Assembly (NCBI GenBank): GCA_022842645.1
Contig: JALHPE010000001.1
Location: forward strand, 329,462 to 393,461
Source of the DNA: Minisyncoccota bacterium
GTDB lineage: Bacteria; Patescibacteriota; Minisyncoccia; Phycocordibacterales; UBA2100
Reading direction: 5' to 3'
Length of the DNA: 64,000 nucleotides
Below, one piece after another: positions 2,938 through 41,191 of this stretch (positions are counted from its first letter, which is position 1; every line of letters begins with the position of its first letter). A model generated the notes under the pieces. It saw only the letters and a program-made list of their open reading frames with translations, made no database searches and was not told the origin of the DNA. Made by a program: the position numbers and the translations under genes.

Positions 2938-3444
2938 GTGATGCAATTCCAAGTACCTCAGTTCATCGAGGTCGAGGATAAAATCTTCGGACCCCTTACC
3001 TTCAAGCAATTCGTCTACGTTGCTGGAGGACTCGGCATTGCCTATATTCTCTGGCGTGCGCTCCCCACATTCCTAGCGGCACCACTTGGCCTTGCCTTCG
3101 CCGGGCTTGGGGTAGCGCTCGCTTTTGTGCAGTACAACGGGCAACCATTTATTGTTGCCGTAGAGCACGCTTTCTTCTATCTTCTGCGCGGGAAACTCTA
3201 CCTCTGGAACAATGAACAGGCAGTAGCACGTGCTAAAAAAACAACACAAGAAGTCAAACTTCCTGCAGAAGCTCCTTATATTCCACGACTTTCTGATAGT
3301 AAGCTCCACGAGCTTTCCTGGAGCCTCGACATCAATGAACGCATTGCTTCGGGTACCACAAGCGGGGAAGAAAGAGTCGCACGAAGTCCAATTGATGACC
3401 TCGTGGCCCCCGTACGCACGCCGCGCAATGCTATTCCTCGATAA
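2938..3444 (+). CDS. PrgI/VirB3-like small membrane protein of the T4SS
   Basis: The N-terminus EVEDKIFGPLTFKQFVYVAGGLGIAYILW followed by a second hydrophobic helix (LGLAFAGLGVALAFV) matches the PrgI-family pattern (K-I-x-G-x-L-T-x-R/K-Q plus two TM helices). The gene sits immediately upstream of VirB4, as PrgI does relative to PrgJ in Gram-positive conjugation systems. Confidence 0.5.
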   Translation: MMQFQVPQFIEVEDKIFGPLTFKQFVYVAGGLGIAYILWRALPTFLAAPLGLAFAGLGVALAFVQYNGQPFIVAVEHAFFYLLRGKLYLWNNEQAVARAKKTTQEVKLPAEAPYIPRLSDSKLHELSWSLDINERIASGTTSGEERVARSPIDDLVAPVRTPRNAIPR

Positions 3445-3447
3445 TCT

Positions 3448-4110
3448 ATGCCCGAAGCATCCACCATTCGTTCGCAAAACCGCTCCACCCAAGAGTTTGT
3501 TCCTATTTCCGAGGTGCGCGACGGTGTAATTGTGCTCAAGGATGGAAGCCTGCGCGCAATCCTTCTCGCCTCGTCTATCAACTTTGCCCTTAAGTCAGAG
3601 GATGAACAAACGGCGTTCATCGTGCAATTCCAAAACTTCCTGAATTCACTTGATTTCTCGACTCAGATTTTCATTGAATCCCGCATGCTTGATATTCGTC
3701 CCTATATTGCGACGCTTGAGGTGGCCTACAAAAGCCAAATGGACGATCTTATGCGCATACAGATTCGTGAATACATCGAATTCATCAAGAGTTTCACCGA
3801 AGCGGCAAACATCATGACGAAAAATTTCTTTGTGGTGGTTCCCTATAACCCCTCATCCCTACCTGCTCTCACCGGAAGTGGTGCAAGTAAATTGTTTGGG
3901 AAAAAGGGAACGGCTTCTGTGGCGGAGGCAAATCGCACTTTTGAAGAAAAAGTATCTCAGCTTGAACAACGTATTGCAATCGTCCAACAAGGCCTCGTGC
4001 GTTGTGGTGTGCGCACCGTGCAGCTCGGTACCGAGGAGGCGATTGAGCTCTTCTACAAACTCTTTAACCCTGGCGAGGAAGGGAAGCCGATGTCACTCAA
4101 CAATGAATAG
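3448..4110 (+). CDS. VirB4 N-terminal-domain-like protein (separate ORF; possible split VirB4)
   Basis: 220-aa ORF starting 3 nt after the PrgI-like gene and ending 56 nt before the VirB4 ATPase ORF, in a different frame. Its size plus the 660-aa ATPase ORF approximates a full-length VirB4/TrbE (~800-880 aa). No ATPase motifs of its own. Confidence 0.4.
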   Translation: MPEASTIRSQNRSTQEFVPISEVRDGVIVLKDGSLRAILLASSINFALKSEDEQTAFIVQFQNFLNSLDFSTQIFIESRMLDIRPYIATLEVAYKSQMDDLMRIQIREYIEFIKSFTEAANIMTKNFFVVVPYNPSSLPALTGSGASKLFGKKGTASVAEANRTFEEKVSQLEQRIAIVQQGLVRCGVRTVQLGTEEAIELFYKLFNPGEEGKPMSLNNE

Positions 4111-4166
4111 GAGTCAAGCTGCGAGCTTATAGGAAAAGCATAGTAGAATAAAGCTTACGGCGTTGG

Positions 4167-6149
4167 TTGTTACCATGTTGCCGCCTGACGCTTGAACCTA
4201 TGGGTATATTCGATCTTTTTTCAAAAAAAGGGGCGGAGCCGGCAGCGGTCTTGCCAGTCTTGCCAGAAGAGATCTATCGCACAGGGGTGCTTGGGCTTCA
4301 AGACGTGATTGCGCCGCACGCGCTTAAGATCAACTCACGCGAACTTGACCTCGGCGAGAAAATTGCACGCACCTTTTTTGTTATTTCGTATCCGCGCTTT
4401 CTCACGACGGGTTGGTTTGCTCCTATCATCAACCTCGACAAGGTTATTGATGTTTCGATTTTCGTCCACCCGATGGACACCAACGAAATGCTGCGTAAAT
4501 TCCAAAAGAAAGTAGCTGAGGTGCAATCTCAAATTTCAACACGAGAAGAAAAAGGTATGGTGCGCGACCCGGTTCTCGACACTGCGTATCAAGACCTTGA
4601 AAAACTCCGCGACTCTCTCCAGCAAGCACAAGAACGCATCTTCGAAGTGGGTCTCTACCTCACCATCTATGGCAATTCACGAGAGGAAATAGATAAAACA
4701 GAGAGCGAAATTCGCTCCATTCTCGAATCCCGCCTCGTTTACATTCGCCCAGCGCTTTTCCAGCAGGAACAAGGTTTTCGTTCGGTTATTCCACTTGCAA
4801 CGGATGAACTTGGTGTCCACACCAAACTCAATTCCGCACCACTCTCATCCATTTTCCCGTTCATTTCCTTCGACCTTACATCCGACCGCGGCATCCTTTA
4901 CGGCATCAATCGTCATAACTCCTCACTTATCCTCTTCGATCGTTTCTCGCTCGAAAACTACAATTCGGTCACGTTCGCAAAATCTGGTTCTGGTAAAAGC
5001 TACACAACGAAGCTCGAAATCCTGCGCTCGCTAATGTTCGATACGGAGGTTATCGTCATCGACCCCGAGCGTGAGTACGAATACCTTGCAGAAACCGTGG
5101 GTGGGCGGTACTTCAATATTTCTCTCTCATCTGAACACCACATCAATCCTTTTGACCTCCCAATTCCACGCGAAGACGAGTCGCCAGGCGATGTCTTGCG
5201 CAACAACATCATCACGCTCGTCGGCCTCTTCCGCATCATGCTCGGAGGACTTACTCCAGAGGAAGATGCGGTGATCGACAAAGCAATCACCGAAACCTAC
5301 GCTCTCAAGGACATCACGGCGGATGCAAATTTTGCCTCTATTGAGCCACCACTCCTTTCCGACTTCGAACTAGTGCTCTCCGGCATGGAGGGCTCGGAGT
5401 CTCTCGTCGCGCGCCTCTCGAAATACACCAAAGGCACGTGGTCGGGCTTCATGAACCGCCCGACAAACGTCGACATGAATAAAAAGCTTATTGTCTTTTC
5501 CGTCCGCGACATGGAAGACGATTTGAAGCCTGTCGCGATGTATATCATTACCCACCACATTTGGAATGCCGTACGCAAGGAACTTCGCAAGCGCCTCCTC
5601 GTCATCGACGAGGCATGGTGGATGATGAAATCTGAAGACACGGCATCCTTCCTCTTTGGAATAGCAAAACGTGGCCGTAAATACTACCTTGGACTCTCGA
5701 CGATTACCCAAGACGTAAACGACTTTCTCACCTCTCCCTATGGCGCAGCAATGATTACTAACTCGTCTATCCAACTCCTCCTGCGTCAATCACCTACATC
5801 CGTCGATCTCGTGCAAAGCACCTTTAAACTTTCTGACGAAGAAAAGTATCTCTTGCTCGAATCTGATGTGGGGGAGGGTATCTTCTTTGCAGGACTTAAA
5901 CATGTCGCGATTAAAGTCATTGCATCGTATACAGAAGACCAGATTATTACATCTGATCCATCACAAATTCTTGCGATAAAGAAAGCAAAACAGGAACTCG
6001 TTGCTTCACAGGAAGTGCCGAGCACTCCGGTGAGTCAAGAGGCGCGTGGTGCAGCGGCTGATATTCTGAAAAATGCAGAACTCAAGAGCGCAAGCGGAAC
6101 ACCGCAAGAGGCTCCAAGCGAACCCCCACTTCCGCCGGGTATAGTATGA
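4167..6149 (+). CDS. virB4: VirB4/TrbE/CagE-family type IV secretion ATPase (ATPase domain)
   Basis: Walker A FAKSGSGKSYTT, Walker B LLVIDEAWWMM, and the conserved downstream GRKYYLGLSTITQ typical of VirB4/TraC ATPases. The probable true start is MGIFDLFSKKG at 4200. Confidence 0.8.
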   Translation: MLPCCRLTLEPMGIFDLFSKKGAEPAAVLPVLPEEIYRTGVLGLQDVIAPHALKINSRELDLGEKIARTFFVISYPRFLTTGWFAPIINLDKVIDVSIFVHPMDTNEMLRKFQKKVAEVQSQISTREEKGMVRDPVLDTAYQDLEKLRDSLQQAQERIFEVGLYLTIYGNSREEIDKTESEIRSILESRLVYIRPALFQQEQGFRSVIPLATDELGVHTKLNSAPLSSIFPFISFDLTSDRGILYGINRHNSSLILFDRFSLENYNSVTFAKSGSGKSYTTKLEILRSLMFDTEVIVIDPEREYEYLAETVGGRYFNISLSSEHHINPFDLPIPREDESPGDVLRNNIITLVGLFRIMLGGLTPEEDAVIDKAITETYALKDITADANFASIEPPLLSDFELVLSGMEGSESLVARLSKYTKGTWSGFMNRPTNVDMNKKLIVFSVRDMEDDLKPVAMYIITHHIWNAVRKELRKRLLVIDEAWWMMKSEDTASFLFGIAKRGRKYYLGLSTITQDVNDFLTSPYGAAMITNSSIQLLLRQSPTSVDLVQSTFKLSDEEKYLLLESDVGEGIFFAGLKHVAIKVIASYTEDQIITSDPSQILAIKKAKQELVASQEVPSTPVSQEARGAAADILKNAELKSASGTPQEAPSEPPLPPGIV

Positions 6150-7150
6150 GACTTCTTATAGTACTCATACTTCTGTGTGCACTTCCTGTTCACGGGCAGT
6201 CATTCGTAACTGGCGTCGAACGCGAATTATCGCTTTCGATGAACCCCGAGCATCCAAGCGCAGGAGAGCGTGTGCGTTTTTCCCTCGAAGGATATGCGGT
6301 TGATGTCGATCGAAGCATGATTGTATGGTATGTGAATGGCAAAGAAGTGGCGCGTGGTGCGGGGCTCAAAGACTTTGAAAGAGACGCTCCTCGACTTGGT
6401 AGCGAAGAGACTATTCGCGCCGTGGCAGAGGAGGTTTCAGGAATTATTGGTGTTGGAACAGCACTACTTCGACCCGGTGAGGTAACACTGCTCTGGGAAG
6501 CGCAGTCTTATACTCATCCTTTTTATAGAGGTCGCGCGCTTCCAGGTTCACAGAGCACCATTCGCGCCCATGCATTCACTGACTTACGGCGCGGCACGGC
6601 CCGTATTGCAGAAAACGATATTATTTTTTCGTGGTATCGAGATGGTGCCCGATTCTCATCGGGTCGCGGCCTCTCCTCGGTCTCATTCCAGGGCCCCACA
6701 CTCTTCGATAGTGACCGAATTGGGGTTGTGGCAGAGTCGCTTGATGGCACAATCTCTGCACGATCTGAGACGTCTCTGCGTGGCGAAGACGCAAAACTCG
6801 AACTCTACGAACATCATCCTCTGTTTGGCACGCTCTATCATCGCGCGTTCGTAGGAACCGTACTAAACCTTGAGGAGGAGCAGAAAGTCGCTACAGTGCC
6901 ATTCTTCGCCCCCGTCACGCCGCGCGATCCTTCGCTTGTGTATGAGTGGGCAGCAGGAGGAGTAACTACATCTCCCGATCCTCAAACACCTGAGATACTC
7001 ACACTCCGTCGGGAAGGAGAGTTTAATGGGGTAATTACACTTGCACTAACACTCTCGAGTCTCTCCGACATATTCCTGAAAGCAACAAACACCTGGAGTA
7101 TTCAGTACGCCCCGGAGACGAACTTCTCAAATCCCTTCTTGTCACTATGA
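6146..7150 (+). CDS. secreted hypothetical protein (signal peptide) in the T4SS-like operon
   Basis: N-terminal MRLLIVLILLCALPVHGQS signal-like sequence. ATGA overlap with the virB4 stop. No family recognised. Confidence 0.5.
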   Translation: MRLLIVLILLCALPVHGQSFVTGVERELSLSMNPEHPSAGERVRFSLEGYAVDVDRSMIVWYVNGKEVARGAGLKDFERDAPRLGSEETIRAVAEEVSGIIGVGTALLRPGEVTLLWEAQSYTHPFYRGRALPGSQSTIRAHAFTDLRRGTARIAENDIIFSWYRDGARFSSGRGLSSVSFQGPTLFDSDRIGVVAESLDGTISARSETSLRGEDAKLELYEHHPLFGTLYHRAFVGTVLNLEEEQKVATVPFFAPVTPRDPSLVYEWAAGGVTTSPDPQTPEILTLRREGEFNGVITLALTLSSLSDIFLKATNTWSIQYAPETNFSNPFLSL

Positions 7151-8364
7151 ACCTCTCTGAGCATCAAGATACATTTCGCATTATTGGCATAACCGCCGCC
7201 GCCTTCCTTATCTTGGGACTGGGCGGTTGGTATATTTTTCTATCTCGCAGTGAGGCAAATCTTGAATCGATTGGAGAATCGCGTGGTTTTTCAGTGGGAA
7301 TTCCTTCGTTTTCTGGAAGTCGTGGCTCGACGATTGAAAATCTCGTACAAGGACTTGCGCCACGTGGCGCAGAACCTATAGGAACCTCAACGAATATACG
7401 CCCACCGCGCCTCTTTCAGGTCAGTCAAACACCTGTTGCGGGCGCGGCGTTTATTGTAAACGGAAGCACCACTCTGATTCGTTTTGTTGAACGCTCAAAT
7501 GGACATGTGTTTGATGCAAATCTTGAAACAGGAGAAGTGATCCGGCGCACGAACACTTCACTCGGCACCATATACGAAGCACATGTTGGTAGTGGAGAGG
7601 CGTTCTTGCTCCGCACACTTGATGACGAGGGGGATGTGCGCACACTGTTCGCAACTTTTGGTACTACAACTGAAAATGATCTGCGCGACCTCGAAACGCG
7701 TGATGTGGGCCCCACCCACGGAGTAGCGTTTCGGGGAGAGACACCGCTTTTCCTTTTCGGAAATGGTGGCAGTCGTCTCGTGGCCTCCTCAACTAACAAG
7801 GAGGAGTTGTTATTTTCATCATCGCTTCAGGGATGGCACATCGTGCGCACAAGCCCCCTTGTCGTTGCTGAGCGTCCCGCACATGGCATACTAGGCAGTG
7901 CATTCAGGGTCTTTTCGCCCTCGAGAATCGAAAGAATAGCAACTGAACGAGGACTTACTATTGCGGCGCATCCACAGAGCGAAGCCTATCTCATAGGGAC
8001 AGCGGGGGAGAGTATGGCACTTTTTGCACAAACATCAGCCACGACAACTCGCGCACTACTTGATATTAAAACGATTGCCGACAAATGTGCATGGGCTCCT
8101 GGCCGATCACTCACCGCCTATTGTGCGGTTCCGCAAGATGAGACTCCAGGAGGCTTCCTTGACCTCTGGTACCGAGGCGCGGTGCATACTAACGATCATT
8201 GGTTTACTGTTGAGTCGGGTTCAGGCACAACTGAGCGCTTATTTGCACCTGAAGGAGACCTTATACTTGATGTTGAAAATCCGCATATAGACGAGAGTGC
8301 ACGATACATTCTTTTTATGAACGCCCGCGATAAATCATTATGGACACTCCGTATTTATGAATAA
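7147..8364 (+). CDS. membrane-anchored hypothetical protein in the T4SS-like operon
   Basis: N-terminal TM anchor ITAAAFLILGLGGWYIFL. 4-nt overlap with the upstream gene. Predicted extracytoplasmic beta-rich body. Confidence 0.5.
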   Translation: MNLSEHQDTFRIIGITAAAFLILGLGGWYIFLSRSEANLESIGESRGFSVGIPSFSGSRGSTIENLVQGLAPRGAEPIGTSTNIRPPRLFQVSQTPVAGAAFIVNGSTTLIRFVERSNGHVFDANLETGEVIRRTNTSLGTIYEAHVGSGEAFLLRTLDDEGDVRTLFATFGTTTENDLRDLETRDVGPTHGVAFRGETPLFLFGNGGSRLVASSTNKEELLFSSSLQGWHIVRTSPLVVAERPAHGILGSAFRVFSPSRIERIATERGLTIAAHPQSEAYLIGTAGESMALFAQTSATTTRALLDIKTIADKCAWAPGRSLTAYCAVPQDETPGGFLDLWYRGAVHTNDHWFTVESGSGTTERLFAPEGDLILDVENPHIDESARYILFMNARDKSLWTLRIYE

Positions 8365-10687: not shown

Positions 10688-12031
10688 ATGATAACTAACA
10701 GGGAATTATGGCAGAATGCGCTCGTCCAGATAGAGCTCGGCACTTCTGAGGCGAGTTTTCGAACTTGGTTCCGTAATACCGACGTTGTCTCGCGTGATGG
10801 CAGCACTATTCATCTTGCCGTTCCTTCAAAAATTGTGAAGGAATGGCTTATGGAGAAGCACCATAAACTCATCCTTGGCACCCTTCGTTCGCTCGATAAT
10901 ACGATTAGGGTAGTTGAGTATGTGGTGAACCGATCGGTGGGAGAACCTCGCCGTGTTGAAAAAACACCCCCAGCAAACACCTCTCTCGACCTTGGACAGC
11001 TCTATATTGATAAACGAGACAACTTGAACCCCCGTTACACTTTTGAAACATTTGTAGTTGGTCCCTTTAATCAACTGGCTCACGCTGCGGCAAAGGCGGT
11101 TATAGAACGCCCCGGACTCGCGTACAACCCCTTCTTCGTCTATGGCGCAAGCGGGCATGGTAAAACCCACCTGATTCAAGCAATTGGTAACCATTTTAAG
11201 AAGACACATACCAATAAAAAGGTTTTTTATGTTTCCTCTGAGCGTTTTGCAGTTGATTTCATCAACGCGGTTTCACGAGGTCGCGCAAATGATTTTAAAG
11301 ATCAGTACCGACAGTACGACGTCCTTATTATGGATGATATTCAATTCATGGCTGAAAAGGAGCGTACACAAGAAGAACTGTTCCATCTTTTTAATGCAAT
11401 GCACGATAACAACAAGCAAATAATTTTCTCTTCGGATAAACATCCCATGCTTCTTCCGGGATTTGAGGATCGTGTCCGAGGCCGTCTCTCTGCAGGAGTC
11501 ATTATGGAAATTCCGGAGCCTGATGTTGAATCACGCATTGCAATTATAAAAGCAAAGATAGAACAACTTGGCTTTAGTCTTCCCGAGGACATCATCACTC
11601 ATATTGCCGAAACTGTGCGAGGCAACATTCGCGAACTTGAGGGAATCATTAATATGATTGTGTGCAAATCCCAACTGAAAGGGAAGGCGATTACTCTCCC
11701 GGACGTACGCACCCTCATAAAACATAATGTTCGTCCTTCAAAAGGTGTCTCTGTAGAAGAGGTGGTGCGCCGTATTGCGCAATATTATGAAGTTGCAGAG
11801 AAGAGTATTTACGAAAAAACCCGAAAGAAGGAGGTGGTGAAGCCACGTCAAATAATTATGTATATCTTACGAGAGGAATTTAATGTTTCGTACCCATCAA
11901 TTGGAGAAAAGCTTGGTGGAAGAGACCACACTACCGTGATTCACTCATGCGAAAAAATAAAAGATGAGGTTAAGCGCAGCACCTCCCTCGATCAAGAGCT
12001 TGAACATATTCGCACTTTAGTACACGCATAA
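10688..12031 (+). CDS. dnaA: chromosomal replication initiator protein DnaA
   Basis: AAA+ Walker A GASGHGKTHL, sensor motifs, and a C-terminal DnaA-box-binding domain (…VSYPSIGEKLGGRDHTTVIHSCEKI…). Confidence 0.95.
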   Translation: MITNRELWQNALVQIELGTSEASFRTWFRNTDVVSRDGSTIHLAVPSKIVKEWLMEKHHKLILGTLRSLDNTIRVVEYVVNRSVGEPRRVEKTPPANTSLDLGQLYIDKRDNLNPRYTFETFVVGPFNQLAHAAAKAVIERPGLAYNPFFVYGASGHGKTHLIQAIGNHFKKTHTNKKVFYVSSERFAVDFINAVSRGRANDFKDQYRQYDVLIMDDIQFMAEKERTQEELFHLFNAMHDNNKQIIFSSDKHPMLLPGFEDRVRGRLSAGVIMEIPEPDVESRIAIIKAKIEQLGFSLPEDIITHIAETVRGNIRELEGIINMIVCKSQLKGKAITLPDVRTLIKHNVRPSKGVSVEEVVRRIAQYYEVAEKSIYEKTRKKEVVKPRQIIMYILREEFNVSYPSIGEKLGGRDHTTVIHSCEKIKDEVKRSTSLDQELEHIRTLVHA

Positions 12032-12255
12032 CTATGTGGATAGTATTCGAACAACAAGAGATTTTGTGTGGAAAAAAAATATATATTACCTACCCAAATT
12101 TTATCCCCACACACCAACACGAGTTATTGATGTACTTTTCCCCAAACACACATACCCAAAATAGTAGTTAAAGACTCACTAAAAAAGACTTTTCCACCTA
12201 TACACATTACTAATAGTAATAATAAGTATTAATAAATAAATAATTATAAACACCT
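12032..12255. promoter_or_regulatory. candidate oriC (dnaA-dnaN intergenic): DnaA boxes plus AT-rich unwinding element
   Basis: DnaA-box-like 9-mers (TATCCACAT on minus at ~12034-12044, TTATCCCCACA, CTATACACA) followed by a >40-nt almost pure A/T stretch (ATTACTAATAGTAATAATAAGTATTAATAAATAAATAATTATAAA) just upstream of dnaN. Confidence 0.5.
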
Positions 12256-13353
12256 ATGCAATTCATCACCACACACGAATCTTTTCTTAAAGCGGTGCTT
12301 ATTGCAGAACGTGTTGTAGGAAAAAAAGAATCACTCCCCGTCCTTTCATGTGTAGTGCTTGATGTGGGTGGTAATGAGTGTGTGGTTAAAAGTACCAACC
12401 TTGAGGCTGGTGTTGAGATTCGGGTACATGCAGATGTAAAAGAGAAGGGTGTTATTGCTATTCCTGTTTCTGTGCTTTCTCAAACAATCAGATCATCTTC
12501 GGGAGATAAAATAGTTCTCCGTGCGGATCAAGGGAATCTACGAGTTGAATCAAAAGGTTTAAAAACGATTATAAAAGCTGTGCCGCATGAGGAATTTCCC
12601 ACTATCCCTCGCGATGTTTCGGAAAACAATATTTCTATCCCTCGCGAAAGTCTTCTTTCTTTATTTCATTCAGTTTCGTACGCAGCATCATCTTCGATGA
12701 TTCGTCCGGAACTGGGGAGTGTATATCTTTCTATTAACGATGGTGTGGTCACTGCTGTTGCAACGGATTCGTTTAGACTCGCGGAAAAAACTCACCCATT
12801 CAAGGGTGATGTATCTGGGGATGTGCTCATTCCACTTAAACATGTCCATGAAATAACACACATCCTCGAGCGCGTGTCAGATGCGGACATAACACTTTCC
12901 ACTAGTGATGCACAACTCTCTCTTTCAACGAGTATGGTGGCATTTGTTTCCCGTGTTATTGATGGAACATTTCCTAACTATAAAGAAATTTTACCCAAGA
13001 AATTTTCAACAGAAGCCACGCTTCTCAAAGCCGATTTTGCTGAGTCTCTCAGGAAAGCTCGTATTTTTTCTGGCGCGGATCAACATGTGGGATTCCATGT
13101 GTATCCAAAGAAAAAAATATTTGACGTTACAGCACAAAGTGCGGCGATTGGGGAGATGTCGGATTCACTTGAGGCAGCGGTTACCGGCGAGGATGTTGAT
13201 GTTAACTTTCATATAGGCTATGTAGCGGATGCGCTGCAATCTATTCCCTCAGATTCACTTATTCTCGGTTTTTCGGGGGCAGGGAAGCCGCTGGTTATGC
13301 GTGGGGTTGGGGATTCTACATTCACCTACCTTGCAATGCCCCTTAATCGCTAG
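12256..13353 (+). CDS. dnaN: DNA polymerase III beta sliding clamp
   Basis: 365 aa, three-domain beta-clamp pattern. Immediately downstream of dnaA. Confidence 0.9.
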   Translation: MQFITTHESFLKAVLIAERVVGKKESLPVLSCVVLDVGGNECVVKSTNLEAGVEIRVHADVKEKGVIAIPVSVLSQTIRSSSGDKIVLRADQGNLRVESKGLKTIIKAVPHEEFPTIPRDVSENNISIPRESLLSLFHSVSYAASSSMIRPELGSVYLSINDGVVTAVATDSFRLAEKTHPFKGDVSGDVLIPLKHVHEITHILERVSDADITLSTSDAQLSLSTSMVAFVSRVIDGTFPNYKEILPKKFSTEATLLKADFAESLRKARIFSGADQHVGFHVYPKKKIFDVTAQSAAIGEMSDSLEAAVTGEDVDVNFHIGYVADALQSIPSDSLILGFSGAGKPLVMRGVGDSTFTYLAMPLNR

Positions 13354-24894: not shown

Positions 24895-24903
24895 TTTTGT
24901 AAT

Positions 24904-24976
24904 CCGCCTATAGCTCAGATGGTAGAGCAGCTCCCTTTTAAGGAGACGGTCCCAGGTTCGATCCCTGGTGGGCGGA
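24904..24976 (+). tRNA. tRNA-Lys (anticodon TTT)
   Basis: Hand-folded cloverleaf: acceptor CCGCCTA/TGGGCGG (one G-U), D-arm GCTC-AGATGGTA-GAGC, anticodon loop CTTTTAA, T-arm CCAGG-TTCGATC-CCTGG, discriminator A. No encoded CCA. Confidence 0.85.
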
Positions 24977-25123
24977 AATGAAAGAAAAATAGGGTCTGCA
25001 CGCTATTTTTCGTTACATTTCCGAGACGGAGGCATGTTTCGCGAGTACGCGAAACAGCCGAGTCGGGGTCGAAGAATTCTTGTCGCGACGGCGACAAGAA
25101 TATCTGTGACGACTGAAGACTGT
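24977..25123 (+). other. conserved tRNA 3'-trailer element (family member 1 of 4)
   Basis: Contains GACGGAGGC, GCCGAGTCGGGGTCG and AATATCTGTGAC motifs shared with the trailers at 29241-29405, 37908-38075 and 39382-39500, plus internal hairpins (TTTCGCG-AGTA-CGCGAAA; TTCTTGTCGC-GACG-GCGACAAGAA). Confidence 0.5.
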
Positions 25124-28245: not shown

Positions 28246-28815
28246 CTAGCGGCCGAGGAGTTTCAGTGCGGCGCGTAAGCGCTCGCTACTTGTTGCAATG
28301 GATGCAGGAACTTTCCGCAGCGTATCGCGCGCTTCGGCGTGCGAGTAACCAAGGGAGCGCATGGCTTCAAGCGCTTCTTCGTCTCCGCGCATGGCACCGT
28401 GCGCCTCTTCGGATCCCGCGCCCACTTTGTCGCGCAGTTCGATCACTATTTTTTCTGCCGTTTTGCGGCCAATTCCGGAAACCTTGGTGAGATACTCCGC
28501 CTCACCCTTTGCAATTGCGGTCCGCAGAGTTTCAGTTGAGGCGATGTCTAGAATGGCGAGTGCTGAGCGGGGGCCGACGCCGGAAACGGTGAGAAGCATC
28601 TCGAAGAATCGAAGTTCTTCCTCAAGGGCGAATCCAAAAAGAGAGAATGCATCTTCGCGTACGTGCGTGTGTATCCAGAGCCCAGCGGACTCTCCTCCCC
28701 GAAGGGAAAGCAAGAGCTGTTTTGTGCATGAGAGCTCATAGCCAACCCCCCCGACAAGGAGGATGAGGTGAGCCGCTCGCGTGCCTTTTACGACGCCTTC
28801 AAGGTAGCCGATCAT
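28246..28815 (-). CDS. ruvA: Holliday junction DNA helicase subunit RuvA
   Basis: MIGYLEGVVK … LFGF … ERELFEML-like LRFFEMLLTVSGVGPRSALAIL helix-hairpin-helix motifs. Confidence 0.9.
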   Translation of the reverse strand: MIGYLEGVVKGTRAAHLILLVGGVGYELSCTKQLLLSLRGGESAGLWIHTHVREDAFSLFGFALEEELRFFEMLLTVSGVGPRSALAILDIASTETLRTAIAKGEAEYLTKVSGIGRKTAEKIVIELRDKVGAGSEEAHGAMRGDEEALEAMRSLGYSHAEARDTLRKVPASIATSSERLRAALKLLGR

Positions 28816-28905
28816 AGGGGAAGTATACCGTATGCCGTATTCGGTATACCGGGGGAATGCCGCAGAAACCCTTGTTTTTTGAGGGGAATAATGTAGTATC
28901 GCCGA

Positions 28906-29168: not shown

Positions 29169-29240
29169 GCTCTCGTCGTTCAACGGATAGGACACATCCT
29201 TGCGGAGGATGTAATGTAGGTTCGATTCCTGCCGAGAGCA
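29169..29240 (+). tRNA. tRNA-Arg (anticodon GCG)
   Basis: Acceptor GCTCTCG/CGAGAGC, D-arm GTTC-AACGGATA-GGAC, anticodon stem CATCC/GGATG with loop TTGCGGA, T-arm GTAGG-TTCGATT-CCTGC, discriminator A. Confidence 0.75.
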
Positions 29241-29405
29241 ATTGAAGCGGAGCAAAATTGCTCCGGAGGACAGTGCCTTCGCACTGTCCGTCAGGAATCG
29301 AAAGGCGGAGCGTTACCGAGCCACTAGGCGAGGTCGCGAGCCGGGGTCGCGAAATTTCTGAGTGACGACGAAGAAATATTTGTGACCGATTCCTGCCGAG
29401 AGCAC
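29241..29405 (+). other. conserved tRNA 3'-trailer element (family member 2 of 4), ending in a direct copy of the tRNA-Arg 3' end
   Basis: Hairpins GGAGCAAAATTGCTCC and GGACAGTGCCTTCGCACTGTCC. CAGGAATCGAA is antisense to the tRNA T-loop TTCGATTCCTG. Motifs GGCGGAGCG, GAGCCGGGGTCGCG and ATATTTGTGAC. The terminal GACCGATTCCTGCCGAGAGCA duplicates tRNA positions 29221-29240. Confidence 0.5.
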
Positions 29406-31585: not shown

Positions 31586-32179
31586 CTAAAAACCAAAGAT
31601 CTCAAGTATCTTATGTGCAAGTGGTTCCTGCATCGGCACTTCTTCCACGCGTTCGCGTAAGTAGGCGCGCACTTCGTCGGGATTAGTGTCGCCGAGCGGA
31701 ATGACAAGATTGGGCGCCATGAATGCGATGGTGTCGATGAGGAGGGTGGGTTCACCAACTTCGGTTTCAACCCAGAACGAAATAATATTCTCAAAGGGGT
31801 GAAGTGTGGGGCCGGTGCGAATGCCGCGCTCGGATATTTCAAATTCGTGAAGCTCCGGTGGGTGTTGCGCGATGAGGGCAATAGTCACTGCGGCGATGAT
31901 AATGACGAGTGCAAAGAGCACGTTGGAAAAAAGAATGCTTGTGAGTGCGGCGCAGACGGCAATAATGCCGAGCGCCCAAAACCAATCCGAGCCGCGCTCG
32001 ATGTGCTCGTGTTCAAATGCAGACCAACGCAAAGAAACCTGTGAGGCTTCAGAAAAAGGCGACCTGCGTTGTTGCGGAGCCTCTGCGTCATCTTCATCGT
32101 ATGCCCGATACGCCTCAGACGACGCTTTCTCCGCGCCTAGCATCTCATCCTTTTTCTGAAGCCTCACACCATCCGACAT
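31586..32179 (-). CDS. hypothetical membrane protein (acidic N-terminus, two TM helices)
   Basis: TM helices WFWALGIIAVCAALTSILFSNVLFALVIIIAAVTIALIA. No known motif. Confidence 0.4.
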   Translation of the reverse strand: MSDGVRLQKKDEMLGAEKASSEAYRAYDEDDAEAPQQRRSPFSEASQVSLRWSAFEHEHIERGSDWFWALGIIAVCAALTSILFSNVLFALVIIIAAVTIALIAQHPPELHEFEISERGIRTGPTLHPFENIISFWVETEVGEPTLLIDTIAFMAPNLVIPLGDTNPDEVRAYLRERVEEVPMQEPLAHKILEIFGF

Positions 32180-35214: not shown

Positions 35215-35264
35215 TTTTGCTTTTTGTACGTTAGACCCTATACGAAATACGGTATACTTGCGGT

Positions 35265-36347
35265 ATGCAGTTCTCGCGCATGCTCGCGCGGTGGTTTCCC
35301 GTACCGCACATGATCGCACCACATGCGGCTGGTATTGATATTACTGACACCTCTATTAAATGGCTCTTATTTTCTGAAAGTCGCGAAGGTCTTCGTGTTG
35401 TCTCGTGGGGATCTGAACCCCTTACAGCAGGCATCGTTGAACGCGGTGCGGTTAAGGACACTGCGGCACTCGGAACAGCTCTTCGTACTCTCAGAAAAAA
35501 ACACGGTATACGCGCAGCACACGCTGCGCTTCCCGAAGAGGATGCCTACATCTTTAGTATGCACGTGCCCGCGCGAAGTACGCGCCATGAGATTATGAGC
35601 ATGGTTGAGTTTGAGCTTGAAGCACGCGTGCCCATTCCTGTTGCGCAGACCGTGTATGACTTTGATACGGTGTTTGCCCGAGATGACAGTGGGGAGGAAA
35701 TTGCCGTCTCTGCGTTTCCGCTCGATCTTGCAAATGGGTATGCACAAGCGTTTGAAATCTCAGGAATTGAGCTACTCTCGCTTGAGCTTGAGGCGCGTTC
35801 TGTAGGACGAGCAACATCCGCTCGTGGGCACGATGCAACAACACTCCTTGTTGATTGTGGGTATGCACGTACGGGGGTCGCTATCCTCAGAAATGGTATC
35901 CCGCTTTTTACTTCTACACTTGATATCGGCGGGCTCCATTTGAGTAAAGCGGTTATGGAAGCCCTTTCTATTTCAGAAGAAGAAGCGCGCACATTTAAGA
36001 ACGAACATGGGATCGTCGGTGCGCCCGATGATAAGGCGCGACTTGCGCTTGAGCGTGCGGCGCACGATCTCGCGAATGAAATCGTAAAACACTATCGTTT
36101 TTGGGATACGCGCAAAGACGAGCATGGCGGGCAGTCCGCTCCGGTGGAGCGAGTGCATCTACTTGGGGGGAGTGCCAACCTCAAAGGATTTCCCGAATAC
36201 ATTGCGAGTATGGTGCACGTGCCTACGGAGCGTCCGAATGTGTGGAAAAATACGTTTTCATTTGATGATGTTATTCCACCTATTGATCGACGCGCATCGC
36301 TGCAGTATGCAACTGCAATCGGCCTCGCGCTCCGGTCTGTCTCATAG
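35265..36347 (+). CDS. pilM: type IV pilus assembly protein PilM (actin-like ATPase fold)
   Basis: GIDITDTSIKWLLF N-terminal phosphate-1-like motif and a C-terminal LLGGSANLKGFPEYI. Followed by two single-TM genes in PilN/PilO positions. Confidence 0.65.
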   Translation: MQFSRMLARWFPVPHMIAPHAAGIDITDTSIKWLLFSESREGLRVVSWGSEPLTAGIVERGAVKDTAALGTALRTLRKKHGIRAAHAALPEEDAYIFSMHVPARSTRHEIMSMVEFELEARVPIPVAQTVYDFDTVFARDDSGEEIAVSAFPLDLANGYAQAFEISGIELLSLELEARSVGRATSARGHDATTLLVDCGYARTGVAILRNGIPLFTSTLDIGGLHLSKAVMEALSISEEEARTFKNEHGIVGAPDDKARLALERAAHDLANEIVKHYRFWDTRKDEHGGQSAPVERVHLLGGSANLKGFPEYIASMVHVPTERPNVWKNTFSFDDVIPPIDRRASLQYATAIGLALRSVS

Positions 36348-37834: not shown

Positions 37835-37907
37835 GGGCGATTAGCTCAGTTGGTAGAGCAATCCGTTTACACCGGAAAGGTCACAGGTTCGAGTCCTGTA
37901 TCGCCCA
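37835..37907 (+). tRNA. tRNA-Val (anticodon TAC)
   Basis: Acceptor GGGCGAT/ATCGCCC, D-arm GCTC-AGTTGGTA-GAGC, anticodon loop TTTACAC, T-arm ACAGG-TTCGAGT-CCTGT, discriminator A. 22 nt after tRNA-Arg(TCT). Confidence 0.85.
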
Positions 37908-38075
37908 CAAAATCAATGAGCGCAATCCGCAGGATTGCGCGACTATGATTTTGTAGGAGCGATACAGGACTCGAAAGACGGAGGCGGGGAACCCGTCAGA
38001 AGACGGGTCGCCGAGTCGGGGTCGTGAAATTGTGCGAGCGACTGGTGAGCAAAATATCTGTGACCGAGCCCACTG
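37908..38075 (+). other. conserved tRNA 3'-trailer element (family member 3 of 4)
   Basis: Hairpin GCGCAATCC-GCA-GGATTGCGC. GCGATACAGGACTCGAA is exactly antisense to the tRNA-Val 3' T-arm/acceptor TTCGAGTCCTGTATCGC. Motifs GACGGAGGCGGGG, hairpin ACCCGTC-AGAAG-ACGGGT, GCCGAGTCGGGGTCG and AATATCTGTGACCGAGCCCAC. Confidence 0.5.
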
Positions 38076-39297: not shown

Positions 39298-39381
39298 GCG
39301 CAGGTGGCGAAATTGGTAGACGTACTACCTTGAGGTGGTAGCGCCCGCAAGGGCATGGAGGTTCGAGTCCTCTCCTGCGCA
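39298..39381 (+). tRNA. tRNA-Leu (anticodon GAG), long variable arm
   Basis: Acceptor GCGCAGG/CCTGCGC, anticodon stem CTACC/GGTAG with loop TTGAGGT, variable arm CGCCCGCAAGGGCAT, T-arm GGAGG-TTCGAGT-CCTCT, discriminator A. Confidence 0.85.
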
Positions 39382-39500
39382 CAAAAATTCAAAACCGAGG
39401 CATGCCTCGGTTTTGTTTATTTTTGCAGCGGGAGAGGACTCAGACTGCGAGCCGGGGTTGCACACACGTTTATCCGACGGGATCAAAATTATGTGTGACC
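39382..39500 (+). other. conserved tRNA 3'-trailer element (family member 4 of 4)
   Basis: Terminator-like hairpin CCGAGGCATGCCTCGG plus a T-run. GGAGAGGACTC is antisense to the tRNA-Leu T-arm GAGTCCTCTCC. Motifs GCGAGCCGGGGTTGC and AAATTATGTGTGACC. Confidence 0.45.
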
Positions 39501-40702: not shown

Positions 40703-41191
40703 ATGGTGTACGTAGTATGTGGTCATTGTGGAGTAGATTTTCGTGCGAAGCCATCTCATATTGCCCTGGGGTACGCGAAATTTTGCTCGAGAAAGTGCAG
40801 TTTTGAGAACATGCGAAACGGGGAATGGGTTGAGTGTGATGGATGTGGAACGAAAGTATATCGGAGCTTAAAGTCCATTAACGCATCTAAAAGTCATAAG
40901 TATTTTTGTAGCAAGTCATGTCAGACAAAGTGGAGAAATAACGATTTCAGTGGTAAGCGGCATGCAAATTGGCAACACGGACGCGGCTCATATAGGAATA
41001 TTATGAAAAGAGCCGGTGTAGAAGCTGTGTGTGATTTATGTCGCATAACTGATGAGAGGGTGCTGATTGTTCATCACAAAGATCAGGATAGGAAAAATAA
41101 TAGTATTAAAAATCTCGCGTGGCTTTGTCGGAATTGTCACTATCTTGCGCATCAATACGCGATTGGACGGGACCGGGGTCTGATTGTATAG
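40703..41191 (+). CDS. HNH endonuclease with N-terminal Cys4 zinc-ribbon motifs
   Basis: CGHCG…C…C and CDGCG…C…C pairs, then the HNH core LIVHHKDQDRKNNSIKNLAWLCRNCH (H-H…N…N…C…C-H). Confidence 0.7.
   Translation: MVYVVCGHCGVDFRAKPSHIALGYAKFCSRKCSFENMRNGEWVECDGCGTKVYRSLKSINASKSHKYFCSKSCQTKWRNNDFSGKRHANWQHGRGSYRNIMKRAGVEAVCDLCRITDERVLIVHHKDQDRKNNSIKNLAWLCRNCHYLAHQYAIGRDRGLIV

What the first reader, a model, noticed from the sequence alone, without database searches (positions are those of the whole stretch)
37908..38075. Conserved 3'-trailer element family on four tRNA loci, with antisense matches to each locus's own T-arm at three of them
The regions just 3' of tRNA-Lys (24977-25123), tRNA-Arg-GCG (29241-29405), the tRNA-Arg-TCT/tRNA-Val pair (37908-38075) and tRNA-Leu (39382-39500) share ordered motifs. 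The order is: a GC hairpin; then GACGGAGGC (Lys GACGGAGGC, Val GACGGAGGCGGGG, Arg GGCGGAGCG); then GAGYCGGGGTYG (GCCGAGTCGGGGTCG twice, GCGAGCCGGGGTCGCG, GCGAGCCGGGGTTGC); then AATATYTGTGAC near the 3' end. Three trailers also carry a segment antisense to the 3' T-arm of their own upstream tRNA. For Val, GCGATACAGGACTCGAA pairs with TTCGAGTCCTGTATCGC. For Arg-GCG, CAGGAATCGAA pairs with TTCGATTCCTG. For Leu, GGAGAGGACTC pairs with GAGTCCTCTCC. Because the tRNA sequences differ and the trailers change with them, these are compensatory changes, which argues for an RNA-level function rather than a mobile repeat. Possible roles are a processing duplex, a 3' ETS regulatory RNA, or a cis-acting leader for the downstream gene. 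tRNA-Ser and tRNA-His in the same window lack the element.
Basis: seen in the sequence. Interest (0 to 1): 0.85.

Follow-up and report, generated by a model that had tools for sequence, protein, structure and literature searches.

The report
Tiny guide-bearing insertion elements in tRNA genes
The conserved "trailers" behind four tRNA genes are copies of a widespread, apparently undescribed family of ~115–350-bp non-coding mobile elements of Patescibacteria that insert into the 3' part of tRNA, tmRNA and some protein genes, rebuild the gene's end, and carry a segment complementary to their own insertion site next to a conserved folded ~85-nt module.

Summary
All four copies share an ~85-nt module (covariance-model scores 88, 82, 57 and 34 bits). 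tRNA-Ser and tRNA-His lack it. The antisense matches to each tRNA are also real.

The interpretation needs changing, because these are insertions. At tRNA-Arg(GCG) the 18 nt after the module's ...TGTGAC end repeat the tRNA 3' end from T-loop C56.

More than 230 further copies were found in public genomes and metagenomes, nearly all Patescibacteria, with a few Elusimicrobia. They obey four rules:
- The right flank restarts at the insertion point.
- The element's left end supplies a new 3' end for the gene. The repeat is about 18 nt in the T-loop class, 6–8 nt at tRNA ends and at least 58 nt in topA.
- The segment just 5' of the module is complementary to positions -2 to about +10–20 of the site.
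- G is conserved at position -3.

The module shows strong covariation and matches no Rfam family. No element encodes a protein. Rare copies carry cargo genes, and tandem arrays occur.

Best reading: non-autonomous integrative elements that choose targets by base pairing and are mobilised in trans. The enzyme, and whether the guide acts as RNA or ssDNA, remain unknown.

The parts
24903..24976 (+). Copy 1: host tRNA-Lys(UUU). The inferred insertion point lies between 24974 and 24975, two nt before the discriminator (the 'tRNA 3'-end' class of sites).
   Evidence: The site is inferred by analogy with 14 loci whose guide predicts CG|GAC and whose right flank starts GAC.
24975..25023 (+). Copy 1: left end. 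It is a hairpin whose 5' arm starts at the insertion point. The 3' arm ends in the 8-nt antisense segment CATTTCCG (25016-25023), which pairs with 24973-24980 (2 nt of left flank plus 6 nt).
25024..25110 (+). Copy 1: conserved module (P1 / hairpin 1 / P2), ending in TGTGAC.
   Evidence: 81.9 bits, E 7.5e-17
29169..29240 (+). Copy 2: host tRNA-Arg(GCG). The insertion point is T55|C56 (29222|29223). Positions 29223-29240 are the rebuilt 3' end (S1).
29241..29302 (+). Copy 2: interior of the left end. It holds an antisense of the acceptor 3' strand (about 29256-29266), 'hairpin 0' (29268-29289), and the 11-nt guide CAGGAATCGAA (29292-29302), which is complementary to T54-N64.
29303..29386 (+). 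Copy 2: conserved module.
   Evidence: 87.8 bits, E 3.5e-18
29387..29404 (+). Copy 2: displaced original tRNA 3' end (S2). It is a perfect 18-nt direct repeat of 29223-29240.
   Evidence: (D1)
37835..37907 (+). Copy 3: host tRNA-Val(UAC). The insertion point is 37889|37890. S1 is 37890-37907.
37908..37975 (+). Copy 3: interior of the left end. It holds an apical GC hairpin (37920-37940) and the 17-nt guide GCGATACAGGACTCGAA (37959-37975).
   Evidence: I12
37976..38064 (+). Copy 3: conserved module.
   Evidence: 56.8 bits, E 3.7e-11
38065..38075 (+). Copy 3: decayed remnant of the displaced tRNA 3' end (CGAG..CCCAC, i.e. the original with about 10 nt deleted).
   Evidence: read from the sequence; weaker than copy 2
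39298..39381 (+). Copy 4: host tRNA-Leu(GAG). S1 is 39364-39381.
39382..39441 (+). Copy 4: left end. It holds a terminator-like hairpin (39390-39415) and the antisense segment GGGAGAGGACTC (39430-39441).
   Evidence: (I6)
39442..39499 (+). Copy 4: degenerate module. Hairpin 1 and the GAA/GGAG part are deleted, and the end reads TGTGTGAC. No recognisable repeat follows.
   Evidence: 33.5 bits over 39398-39499

Best explanation
These are copies of a family of miniature, non-coding, site-specific integrative elements.

Anatomy, 5' to 3' on the host gene's sense strand:
1. S1, a copy of the target gene from the insertion point to the gene's end. It keeps the gene intact.
2. One or more hairpins.
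3. A 'guide', complementary to the target from 2 nt left of the insertion point to about 6-20 nt right of it.
4. Immediately after the guide, an ~85-nt folded module ending in ...TGTGAC.
5. The displaced original 3' part of the gene (S2), which decays with time.

Shown by the data: the elements are insertions; the guide matches the site; the element brings its own gene end; it encodes no enzyme.

Inferred: the insertion site is chosen by base pairing between the guide and the target, with an unpaired G at -3 acting like a PAM/TAM. The module would be the handle for an enzyme encoded elsewhere in the genome. That enzyme would cut and join the sense strand at -1|+1 and after GTGAC.

My preferred version (about 0.35) is that guide plus module act as an RNA. 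The RNA would be made by read-through from the strongly expressed host gene, like a bridge/seekRNA. Nearly as likely (about 0.3) is that the same strand acts as folded single-stranded DNA, where S1 paired with the guide mimics the duplex target. That would resemble IS200/IS605-REPIN or attC/CTX-phage logic.
For: Insertion signature. The right flank after GTGAC repeats the target from the site: the window Arg locus, 18/18, and 42 loci with a 14-nt copy allowing at most 1 mismatch.

Repeat length tracks the distance to the gene end. It is about 18 nt from C56 in tRNAs, 6-8 nt at tRNA-end sites, and at least 58 nt in topA.

S1 and S2 can differ. S1 always completes the acceptor stem (mean 6.8 of 7 pairs). 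In L189 both displaced copies agree with each other but not with the current tmRNA end. So the element carries its own gene end; this is not a fixed-length target duplication.

Guide. It covers exactly 2 nt of left flank in most loci. Positions -2, -1 and +1 are paired in 98-100% of loci, and +4 to +9 in 83-98% with covariation. The last 5 guide nt predict the first 3 nt of the right flank: CGA 46, CAC 46, CAA 29, GAC 15. G at -3 occurs in 27/28 non-T-loop sites.

Module. 27 pairs, 18 of them with double changes. 95% of cells are paired, against 75% in shuffles. Covariation score is 0.565, against 0.189 in shuffles and 0.07-0.15 with slid partners. G-U pairs fix the sense strand as the functional one.

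Non-autonomous. No shared ORF lies inside or beside more than 100 elements. Cargo versions carry no recombinase. The window has no transposase, integrase or RT.

Distribution. Occurrence at bystander tRNAs is patchy. Tandem arrays occur.
Against: - No enzyme was found, so mobility 'in trans' and guide-directed targeting are inferences from anatomy.
- No empty-site allele of a window locus was found.
- The four window copies differ from each other by 36-38%. Many copies with fully decayed S2 keep an intact module and guide. That fits long-term selection on each copy, possibly a host-level function, as well as it fits a selfish element.
- Against an RNA guide: in many loci the left end contains a good intrinsic terminator just upstream of guide and module (for the Leu copy; examples). 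In some tandem copies the guide is only about 5 nt (L077).
- Against ssDNA: there is no HUH Y1 gene in 1.65 Mb of element-bearing DNA. This is a weak test, because it used query sequences recalled from memory.
- Columns fixed by my search pattern are invariant by ascertainment.
Confidence: 0.6

Rival explanations
1. Host-function reading. The trailer is a cis-acting RNA of the tRNA precursor: a processing duplex, a 3'-ETS regulatory RNA or a leader of the downstream gene. Selection on tRNA expression maintains it, and the repeats are incidental.
For: - Strong structural covariation in the module.
- The antisense segment is kept complementary to the tRNA even where the downstream repeat has decayed, for example Val 17 nt and L058 21 nt.
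- The predicted precursor fold pairs the tRNA 3' half with the trailer, with z = -8 to -10.
- Copies within one genome are old and divergent.
Against: - The same module with matching guides sits in tmRNA, topA and rplL 3' ends.
- Direct repeats of the target start exactly at the module's end.
- Tandem arrays and cargo-bearing versions exist.
- Only 17/230 bystander tRNAs carry the core motif.
- Downstream genes are unrelated to one another.
- Terminator-like hairpins precede the module in many loci.
Confidence: 0.1
2. Scars of classical integrase-mediated islands (CIME- or tycheposon-satellite-like). A tyrosine integrase that recognises tRNA T-loops integrated larger elements. Internal deletion then left attL/attR with a conserved arm region. 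The antisense segment has no guiding role.
For: - Integration inside the T-loop or 3' end of tRNA and tmRNA genes with restoration of the gene end and a direct repeat is the textbook signature of such islands (established knowledge).
- Tandem arrays occur.
- Rare 1-3.6 kb versions carry cargo.
Against: - One and the same module is associated with unrelated left flanks (GGTT, GGCG, GGCA, AGGA). A protein-read core site cannot explain this.
- The guide covaries with each site.
- The module's stems covary, as in a single-stranded fold, with strand-specific G-U pairs.
- There are minimal units of about 95 nt.
- None of more than 230 loci has an integrase inside. Only one Xer-like gene was found in 1.65 Mb of flanks.
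Confidence: 0.12
3. Retroelement reading. The element is copied through RNA by target-primed reverse transcription. The guide opens the target, and the read-through 3' tail (S2) serves as primer-binding site, in a pegRNA- or SINE-like arrangement.
For: - The order guide - scaffold - sequence identical to the nicked strand resembles a prime-editing RNA.
- The element always has the same orientation as a highly expressed host gene.
- Repeat length is variable.
Against: - Repeat length tracks the gene end rather than a random second nick.
- S1 can differ from S2.
- A survey of 95 complete Patescibacteria genomes reports no group II introns (PMC13011429).
- No RT gene was seen in the window.
Confidence: 0.06

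Closest known systems
IS110/IS1111 elements with bridge RNA / seekRNA, including solo RNA copies such as Ssr9 of ISPpu9
   Same: A structured non-coding RNA of about 75-180 nt encoded in the element carries short segments complementary to the target and decides the insertion site. Insertion is orientation-specific. RNA-only copies occur in genomes (PMC11208160, PMC11187229, PMC12288879).
   Different: No DEDD recombinase gene is in or near any copy. IS110-type recombination needs the same core dinucleotide in donor and target, but here the two nt left of the site vary (TT, CG, CA...) while the element always ends in AC. IS110/IS1111 make no long repeat and do not rebuild a gene end. There is no Rfam or sequence similarity.
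IS200/IS605 family and its non-autonomous hairpin derivatives (PATEs; REP/REPIN with single-copy RAYT transposase)
   Same: Both have strand-specific hairpins at both ends. The topology is the same: cleavage site ... guide-hairpin at the left, guide-hairpin ... cleavage site at the right. Cleavage sites pair with an internal guide placed 5' of a hairpin. Copies are small and non-coding and are served by an enzyme encoded once elsewhere. They persist for a long time. This comparison rests on established knowledge.
   Different: Those families use a fixed 4-5-nt target lying only to the left of the cut. Here the paired stretch is 5-23 nt, lies mostly to the right of the cut, and differs between copies. 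They do not carry a replacement gene end. No Y1 transposase was found (weak test).
tRNA/tmRNA-targeting integrative islands and their integrase-less derivatives (CIMEs, tycheposon satellites)
   Same: They insert in the T-loop or 3' end of tRNA and tmRNA genes. The element supplies a new 3' end, and the old one remains as a direct repeat. Arrays build up at one site.
   Different: Size is 0.1-0.35 kb. A conserved folded module replaces arm-type integrase sites. An internal antisense copy of the site is present. One module family serves many unrelated sites.
Folded single-strand recombination sites (integron attC; CTX-phage attP(+))
   Same: Two inverted copies fold into a hairpin that imitates a duplex recombination partner. 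The process is strand-specific. Tandem integration occurs. Cassette-like cargo is sometimes present.
   Different: There are no GTTRRRY/RYYYAAC core sites and no dif-like site. Targets are many and are defined by the element's own sequence.
Group I intron P1/P10 (internal guide sequence) logic
   Same: The last nt of the upstream sequence plus the first nt of the element pair with an internal guide. The first nt of the downstream flank match the same guide.
   Different: The element is far too small for a group I core and ends in C rather than G. The upstream gene is already complete, so no splicing is needed. There is no Rfam intron hit.

Membership tests
Any Rfam 15 RNA family | Match to a curated covariance model | tested here: not met
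   Gathering-threshold scan of the whole window and of 14 related loci found only tRNA, tmRNA and rRNA. E-value scans of two copies gave only chance-level hits.
IS110/IS1111 bridge/seekRNA element | DEDD (RuvC-like + Tnp) recombinase encoded in the element or genome | not tested
   No ORF lies inside the elements. No transposase Pfam hit among 50 window ORFs. Whole genomes could not be searched.
IS110/IS1111 bridge/seekRNA element | Identical core dinucleotide in donor and target flanking the exchange | tested here: not met
   The element always ends in AC, whereas the two nt left of the site are TT, CG, CA, TG and others.
IS110/IS1111 bridge/seekRNA element | ncRNA segments complementary to the target | tested here: met
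   The guide is complementary to -2..+N of the site and covaries with it.
IS200/IS605-type (PATE / REPIN-RAYT) | Y1 HUH transposase | tested here: inconclusive
   tblastn with IS608 and IS200 TnpA sequences recalled from memory against 1.65 Mb gave nothing below E = 0.3. A single-copy gene elsewhere would not have been sampled.
IS200/IS605-type (PATE / REPIN-RAYT) | Fixed 4-5-nt target immediately 5' of the left end; no repeat | tested here: not met
   Only G at -3 (and G at -4) is constant. -2 and -1 vary with the guide. A repeat of 6 to 58 nt or more follows the right end.
IS200/IS605-type (PATE / REPIN-RAYT) | Strand-specific subterminal hairpins, with cleavage sites paired to guides 5' of the hairpins | tested here: met
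   P2 pairs GUCGCG with UGUGAC at the right end. The guide lies 5' of P1/hairpin 1 at the left. G-U pairs mark one strand.
Integrase-type tRNA/tmRNA integrative element or CIME | Insertion within the gene's 3' part, with restoration of the gene and a direct repeat of that part | tested here: met
Integrase-type tRNA/tmRNA integrative element or CIME | Tyrosine or serine integrase and a protein-read core site common to all targets | tested here: not met
   No integrase lies in any element. One Xer-like gene and no serine recombinase were found in 1.65 Mb. The left flanks are unrelated apart from G at -3.
Classical MITE | Terminal inverted repeats at both ends and a fixed-length target duplication | tested here: not met
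   The inverted repeat is S1 against the guide, and the guide lies about 87 nt from the right end. Repeat length varies with the distance to the gene end.
Integron attC | R''/R' core sites RYYYAAC / GTTRRRY with crossover at G|TT | tested here: not met
   The junctions are NN|S1 and GTGAC|S2. No such cores were seen on reading the sequences.
Host tRNA 3'-trailer (3' ETS) regulatory RNA | Specific to tRNA precursors and not flanked by insertion signatures | tested here: not met
   The module is also found in tmRNA, topA and rplL 3' ends, and it is flanked by target repeats.
Host tRNA 3'-trailer (3' ETS) regulatory RNA | Transcribed with the tRNA and processed to a stable RNA | not testable with these tools
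   No transcript data were available. Terminator-like hairpins precede the module in some loci.

The most novel reading that the evidence does not exclude
The guide plus the ~85-nt module would be the nucleic-acid component of a previously unknown programmable DNA-insertion system of Patescibacteria. A compact, chromosomally encoded enzyme would read a G-N-N| site through a 5-20-nt guide lying directly 5' of the scaffold. It would insert any DNA bounded by a target-like left end and the module, with or without cargo. Several unrelated module families seen at the same position (L047, L110, L117, L090, L146) would then be parallel systems of the same class.
Probability: 0.35. Interest if true: 0.95.

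Novelty: new variant of a known kind. Interest (0 to 1): 0.8.

Why it matters
If the base-pairing rule is causal, this would be a third or fourth natural way of aiming DNA insertion with a nucleic-acid guide, after group II introns, IS200/IS605 guides and IS110 bridge RNAs. It occurs in the smallest bacterial genomes known, in a unit of only about 100 nt that can also carry cargo. Three features make it directly testable and potentially useful: a short scaffold, a guide at a fixed place, and a simple G at -3.

Even without the mechanism, the finding has practical consequences:
- It defines a widespread conserved structured motif absent from Rfam.
- It explains many 'conserved tRNA trailers' and duplicated gene ends in Patescibacteria assemblies.
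- It shows that tRNA, tmRNA, topA and rplL 3' ends in these genomes are often supplied by the element rather than native, which matters for annotation and phylogeny.

Tried and rejected
1. Known RNA families: Rfam at gathering and permissive thresholds on the window and on 14 loci gave nothing.
2. Fixed-length target-site duplication from staggered nicks (TPRT- or Cas1-like): rejected. Repeat length follows the distance to the gene end, and S1 differs from S2 in some loci.
3. T-loop intron that uses the downstream copy as 3' exon: rejected. The upstream gene is always complete, the downstream copy decays, and the element ends in C.
4. Rolling-hairpin 'flip-flop' origin of the palindrome: rejected. 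Hairpin loops always have the same orientation, for example AACTGCTT.
5. Target-specific vertical lineages: module similarity is barely linked to tRNA identity (0.347 against 0.363).
6. Element-borne or linked enzyme:
   - ORF clustering around 107 loci found only housekeeping neighbours.
   - Pfam on 50 window ORFs and on the L205 cargo gave no candidate.
   - PDB sequence search of four unknown window proteins gave nothing.
   - tblastn with recalled TnpA(Y1), XerD and Hin sequences found one Xer-like gene only.
7. Viral contigs: no copy.
8. Empty-site allele of the Arg(GCG) locus in metagenomes: none found.
9. Literature: nine full-text searches found no description of these elements.
10. 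Box C/D-like or K-turn-like GA motifs in the module, as a link to Nop-domain TIGR-Tas/IS110 proteins: noted as a lead only and not tested.

Full report
**1.

The window carries seven tRNA genes, all on the + strand. The core GAGYCGGGGTYG occurs exactly four times. Allowing one mismatch gives five matches, against 0.93 expected. A covariance model built from copies in other organisms (R1) was run on the whole window without filters. It finds only these four: 87.8, 81.9, 56.8 and 33.5 bits. tRNA-Ser and tRNA-His have none.

The antisense matches to the T-arm are real:
- Val, 17 nt (I12).
- Arg, 11 nt, and Leu, 11 nt.
- The Lys copy has one too: 8 nt against the last four bases of the tRNA plus the first four of the trailer.

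The Leu copy is a degenerate one. Hairpin 1 is deleted and its score is low.

**2.

At tRNA-Arg(GCG) the module ends ...TTGTGAC at 29386. The next 18 nt (29387-29404, CGATTCCTGCCGAGAGCA) repeat the tRNA from C56 of the T-loop to the discriminator base (D1). At Val the same place holds CGAG..CCCAC, the same kind of repeat with about 10 nt lost.

**3. The family is large and obeys strict rules**

An exact-pattern scan for the module core returned at least 117 loci from one-genome-per-species contigs. Nearly all are Patescibacteria (Saccharibacteria, Paceibacteria, Taylor-, Lloyd-, Nomura- and Kaiserbacteria and others), with a few Elusimicrobia. The metagenome scan returned at least 120 more. 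Viral contigs had none.

Host genes:
- About two thirds of copies lie 63-130 nt behind a same-strand tRNA of almost any specificity.
- Most of the rest lie behind tmRNA (Rfam).
- Others lie in the last codons of topA (10 loci) or of rplL (L045; read from the translated sequence, not checked against a protein family).
- Some lie behind tRNAs that ARAGORN missed.

Four rules hold across these classes.

(a) The sequence right after GTGAC restarts the target at the insertion point. There are three main kinds of site: T55|C56 in the T-loop, about N71|N72 at the tRNA end, and GGCA|C in topA.

(b) The element begins with its own copy of the target from that point (S1), so the host gene stays complete. 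The acceptor stem is intact with S1 in essentially all loci, while the downstream copy S2 decays.

(c) The segment immediately 5' of the module is complementary to the target from exactly 2 nt left of the site to 6-20 nt right of it.
- In 42 T-loop copies, positions -2, -1 and +1 are paired in 98-100% of loci. Positions +4 to +9 are paired in 83-98%, with covariation.
- The last five guide bases predict the first three bases of the right flank: 46 CGA, 46 CAC, 29 CAA and 15 GAC.
- The guide matches its own tRNA far better than other tRNAs: mean run 9.0 nt against 2.6 nt, and runs of 15 nt or more in 9/61 against 0/3556.

(d) Position -3, which the guide does not cover, is G in 27 of 28 non-T-loop sites. 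It is G53 in the T-loop class. Position -4 is usually G as well.

**4. The repeat is a carried gene end, not a fixed target duplication**

Repeat length follows the distance from the site to the end of the gene:
- 18-28 nt in the T-loop class.
- 6-8 nt at tRNA ends.
- At least 58 nt in topA. The two copies are identical in L101 and about 75% identical without gaps in five other genomes.

In L189 two displaced copies agree with each other but differ from the tmRNA's present 3' end. The element therefore brings a replacement end, as tRNA-targeting islands do.

**5. The module is a conserved fold of one strand**

An alignment of 104 modules (A2) gives this structure: P1 (G-R-C with G-Y-C), an internal loop GSA/GA, hairpin 1, a single-stranded GGG, and a long P2. 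P2 has the 5' arm GUCGCG.. and the 3' arm ..UGUGAC, the element's last bases. Its tip carries ..GA-GY-GAC-GR-GA...

The covariation evidence:
- Eighteen of 27 pairs show double changes.
- 95% of cells are paired, against 75% after shuffling.
- The covariation score is 0.565, against 0.189 after shuffling and 0.07-0.15 when the partners are slid.
- Pair 55-92 is G-U in 87 sequences and A-U in 17. The sense strand of the host gene is therefore the one that folds.

One caveat: the columns I fixed in the search pattern (the core, GAC and TGTGAC) are invariant by ascertainment.

No Rfam family matches, even at permissive thresholds.

**6. Variants that bear on mechanism**

- Many T-loop copies have a further conserved 'hairpin 0' (for example GCAAGCCAACTGCTTGGCTTGC). 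It is inserted in the antisense arm exactly between the part complementary to the T-arm and the part complementary to the acceptor strand.
- In tandem arrays the left end can shrink to 9-11 nt, for example CAC-AAA-GTG-CG in L077.
- Unrelated-looking modules occupy the same position, after a T-loop-complementary guide and before a repeat of the tRNA end, in L047, L090, L110, L117 and L146.
- Two elements carry cargo between S1 and the guide. L189 holds a 280-aa membrane protein in about 1 kb. L205 holds four metabolic-type genes in about 3.6 kb at tRNA-Asp. Neither holds a recombinase.

**7. No enzyme was found**

- ORF clustering around 107 loci gives only housekeeping neighbours.
- Pfam on 50 window ORFs shows an origin-proximal core-genome region: dnaA, dnaN, polA, ruvABC, recA, recO, ssb, type IV pilus genes, several aminoacyl-tRNA synthetases, and one small HNH ORF. 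No transposase, integrase or reverse transcriptase appears.
- tblastn with remembered Y1 transposase, XerD and Hin sequences against all 1.65 Mb fetched finds one Xer-like gene.
- A published survey reports no group II introns in 95 complete Patescibacteria genomes (PMC13011429).

The elements are therefore non-autonomous.

**8. How it most likely works**

What is shown: these are insertions with a site-matched internal segment and a carried gene end, they are non-coding, and the fold is strand-specific.

What is inferred: the guide selects the site by base pairing, G at -3 is read by a protein, the module is the protein handle, and the sense strand is cut and joined at -1|+1 and after GTGAC. 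The two guide bases that pair with the left flank fit only after joining. This would favour the product and check the left flank.

I put the guide-directed, trans-mobilised reading at about 0.6.

Within it I slightly prefer an RNA guide (about 0.35), for three reasons. The elements always sit in the sense orientation at the 3' end of strongly expressed genes and have no promoter of their own. The scaffold has the size of a seekRNA. It contains G-U and GA motifs.

A folded ssDNA form is nearly as likely (about 0.3), also for three reasons. The end topology is that of IS200/IS605. The pairing of S1 with the guide imitates the duplex target, as in CTX-phage or attC sites. Terminator-like hairpins precede the module in many loci, and very short guides occur in arrays.

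**9. Rival readings**

- A purely host-encoded tRNA-processing role is contradicted by the non-tRNA targets, the repeats, the arrays, the cargo versions and the patchy occurrence (17 of 230 bystander tRNAs). Still, the long survival of intact modules and guides in copies whose S2 has decayed, and the 36-38% divergence among the four window copies, leave room for a secondary benefit to the host.
- Classical integrase scars do not explain one module serving unrelated sites with covarying guides.
- A retro-mechanism lacks a reverse transcriptase and does not fit the repeat-length rule.

**10. Comparison with known systems**

The element works most like the guide-using insertion sequences (IS110/IS1111 bridge/seekRNA, IS200/IS605 and REPIN-RAYT), combined with the gene-restoring logic of tRNA-targeting islands. 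It fails a defining feature of each:
- IS110 requires a shared core dinucleotide in donor and target.
- IS200/IS605 uses a fixed left-flank tetranucleotide and makes no repeat.
- Integrase islands have an integrase and a common protein-read core site.
- MITEs have terminal inverted repeats and a fixed target duplication.
- attC sites have defined core sites.

Nine literature searches found no description of these elements. I file it as a new variant among guide-directed or site-specific mobile elements. There is a substantial chance that it is a new class once the enzyme is known.

Noticed in passing
L047 about 2720-2990; L110, L117, L090, L146 (oriented as): At least four other, unrelated-looking small two-hairpin modules sit in exactly the same context: after a T-loop-complementary guide ending ..TCGAA, and before a repeat of the tRNA 3' end. 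They are often in tandem with the module studied here. This suggests a wider class of such elements.
   Followed up: partly
L205 2517-6300; L189 (minus strand) 11030-12270: Cargo-carrying versions. One is about 3.6 kb and carries an alpha/beta hydrolase, a peptidase S51, a SAM hydroxide adenosyltransferase-like gene and a HisRS-like gene, lying between tRNA-Asp and the guide/module. The other is about 1 kb and carries a 280-aa membrane protein behind tmRNA. Neither carries a recombinase.
   Followed up: partly
right flanks of 12 loci (e.g. L011, L016, L022, L040, L047, L064, L078, L111): The displaced copy S2 often begins CTA where the intact gene has CGA or CAA. This occurs in both the tRNA and topA classes. 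It is a recurrent change at +2 that I cannot explain.
   Followed up: no
window 32040-32059 and 32149-32168: A perfect 20-nt inverted repeat (TGTGAGGCTTCAGAAAAAGG / its complement) with arms 89 nt apart, just upstream of tRNA-Ser.
   Followed up: no
window 28813-28851 and 35229-35267: A 39-nt, 77% complementary inverted pair rich in GGTATAC / CGGTATAC words, lying at two gene starts. It may be a shared promoter or operator word.
   Followed up: no
window 39390-39415: The left-end hairpin of the Leu copy scores as a strong bidirectional intrinsic terminator (11 bp with T-runs on both strands). Transcription from tRNA-Leu may therefore stop before the degenerate module.
   Followed up: partly
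window 40703-41191: A small ORF (162 aa) with an HNH_3 endonuclease domain lies between a DUF2914 gene and tRNA-His. It looks like a free-standing homing-type nuclease.
   Followed up: no
window 2938-8364: A PrgI-family ORF and a TraG-like P-loop ATPase (4167-6149), surrounded by ORFs with no Pfam match, sit next to the dnaA/dnaN origin region. This may be a type IV secretion or conjugation remnant.
   Followed up: no
window tRNA genes (e.g. 29240/29241, 37907/37908): The tRNA genes do not encode the 3' CCA. The antisense arms pair with the genomic trailer rather than with CCA, so they match the gene or precursor and not the mature tRNA.
   Followed up: partly
module columns 5-7/42-43 and the P2 tip (A2 alignment): There are two internal loops of the GA/GA type (GSA opposite GA, and ..GA-GY-GAC-GR-GA..). 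They resemble K-turn or box C/D-like protein-binding motifs. This is a possible link to the Nop-domain RNA-guided proteins reported in CPR bacteria (PMC12045711), but it was not tested.
   Followed up: no
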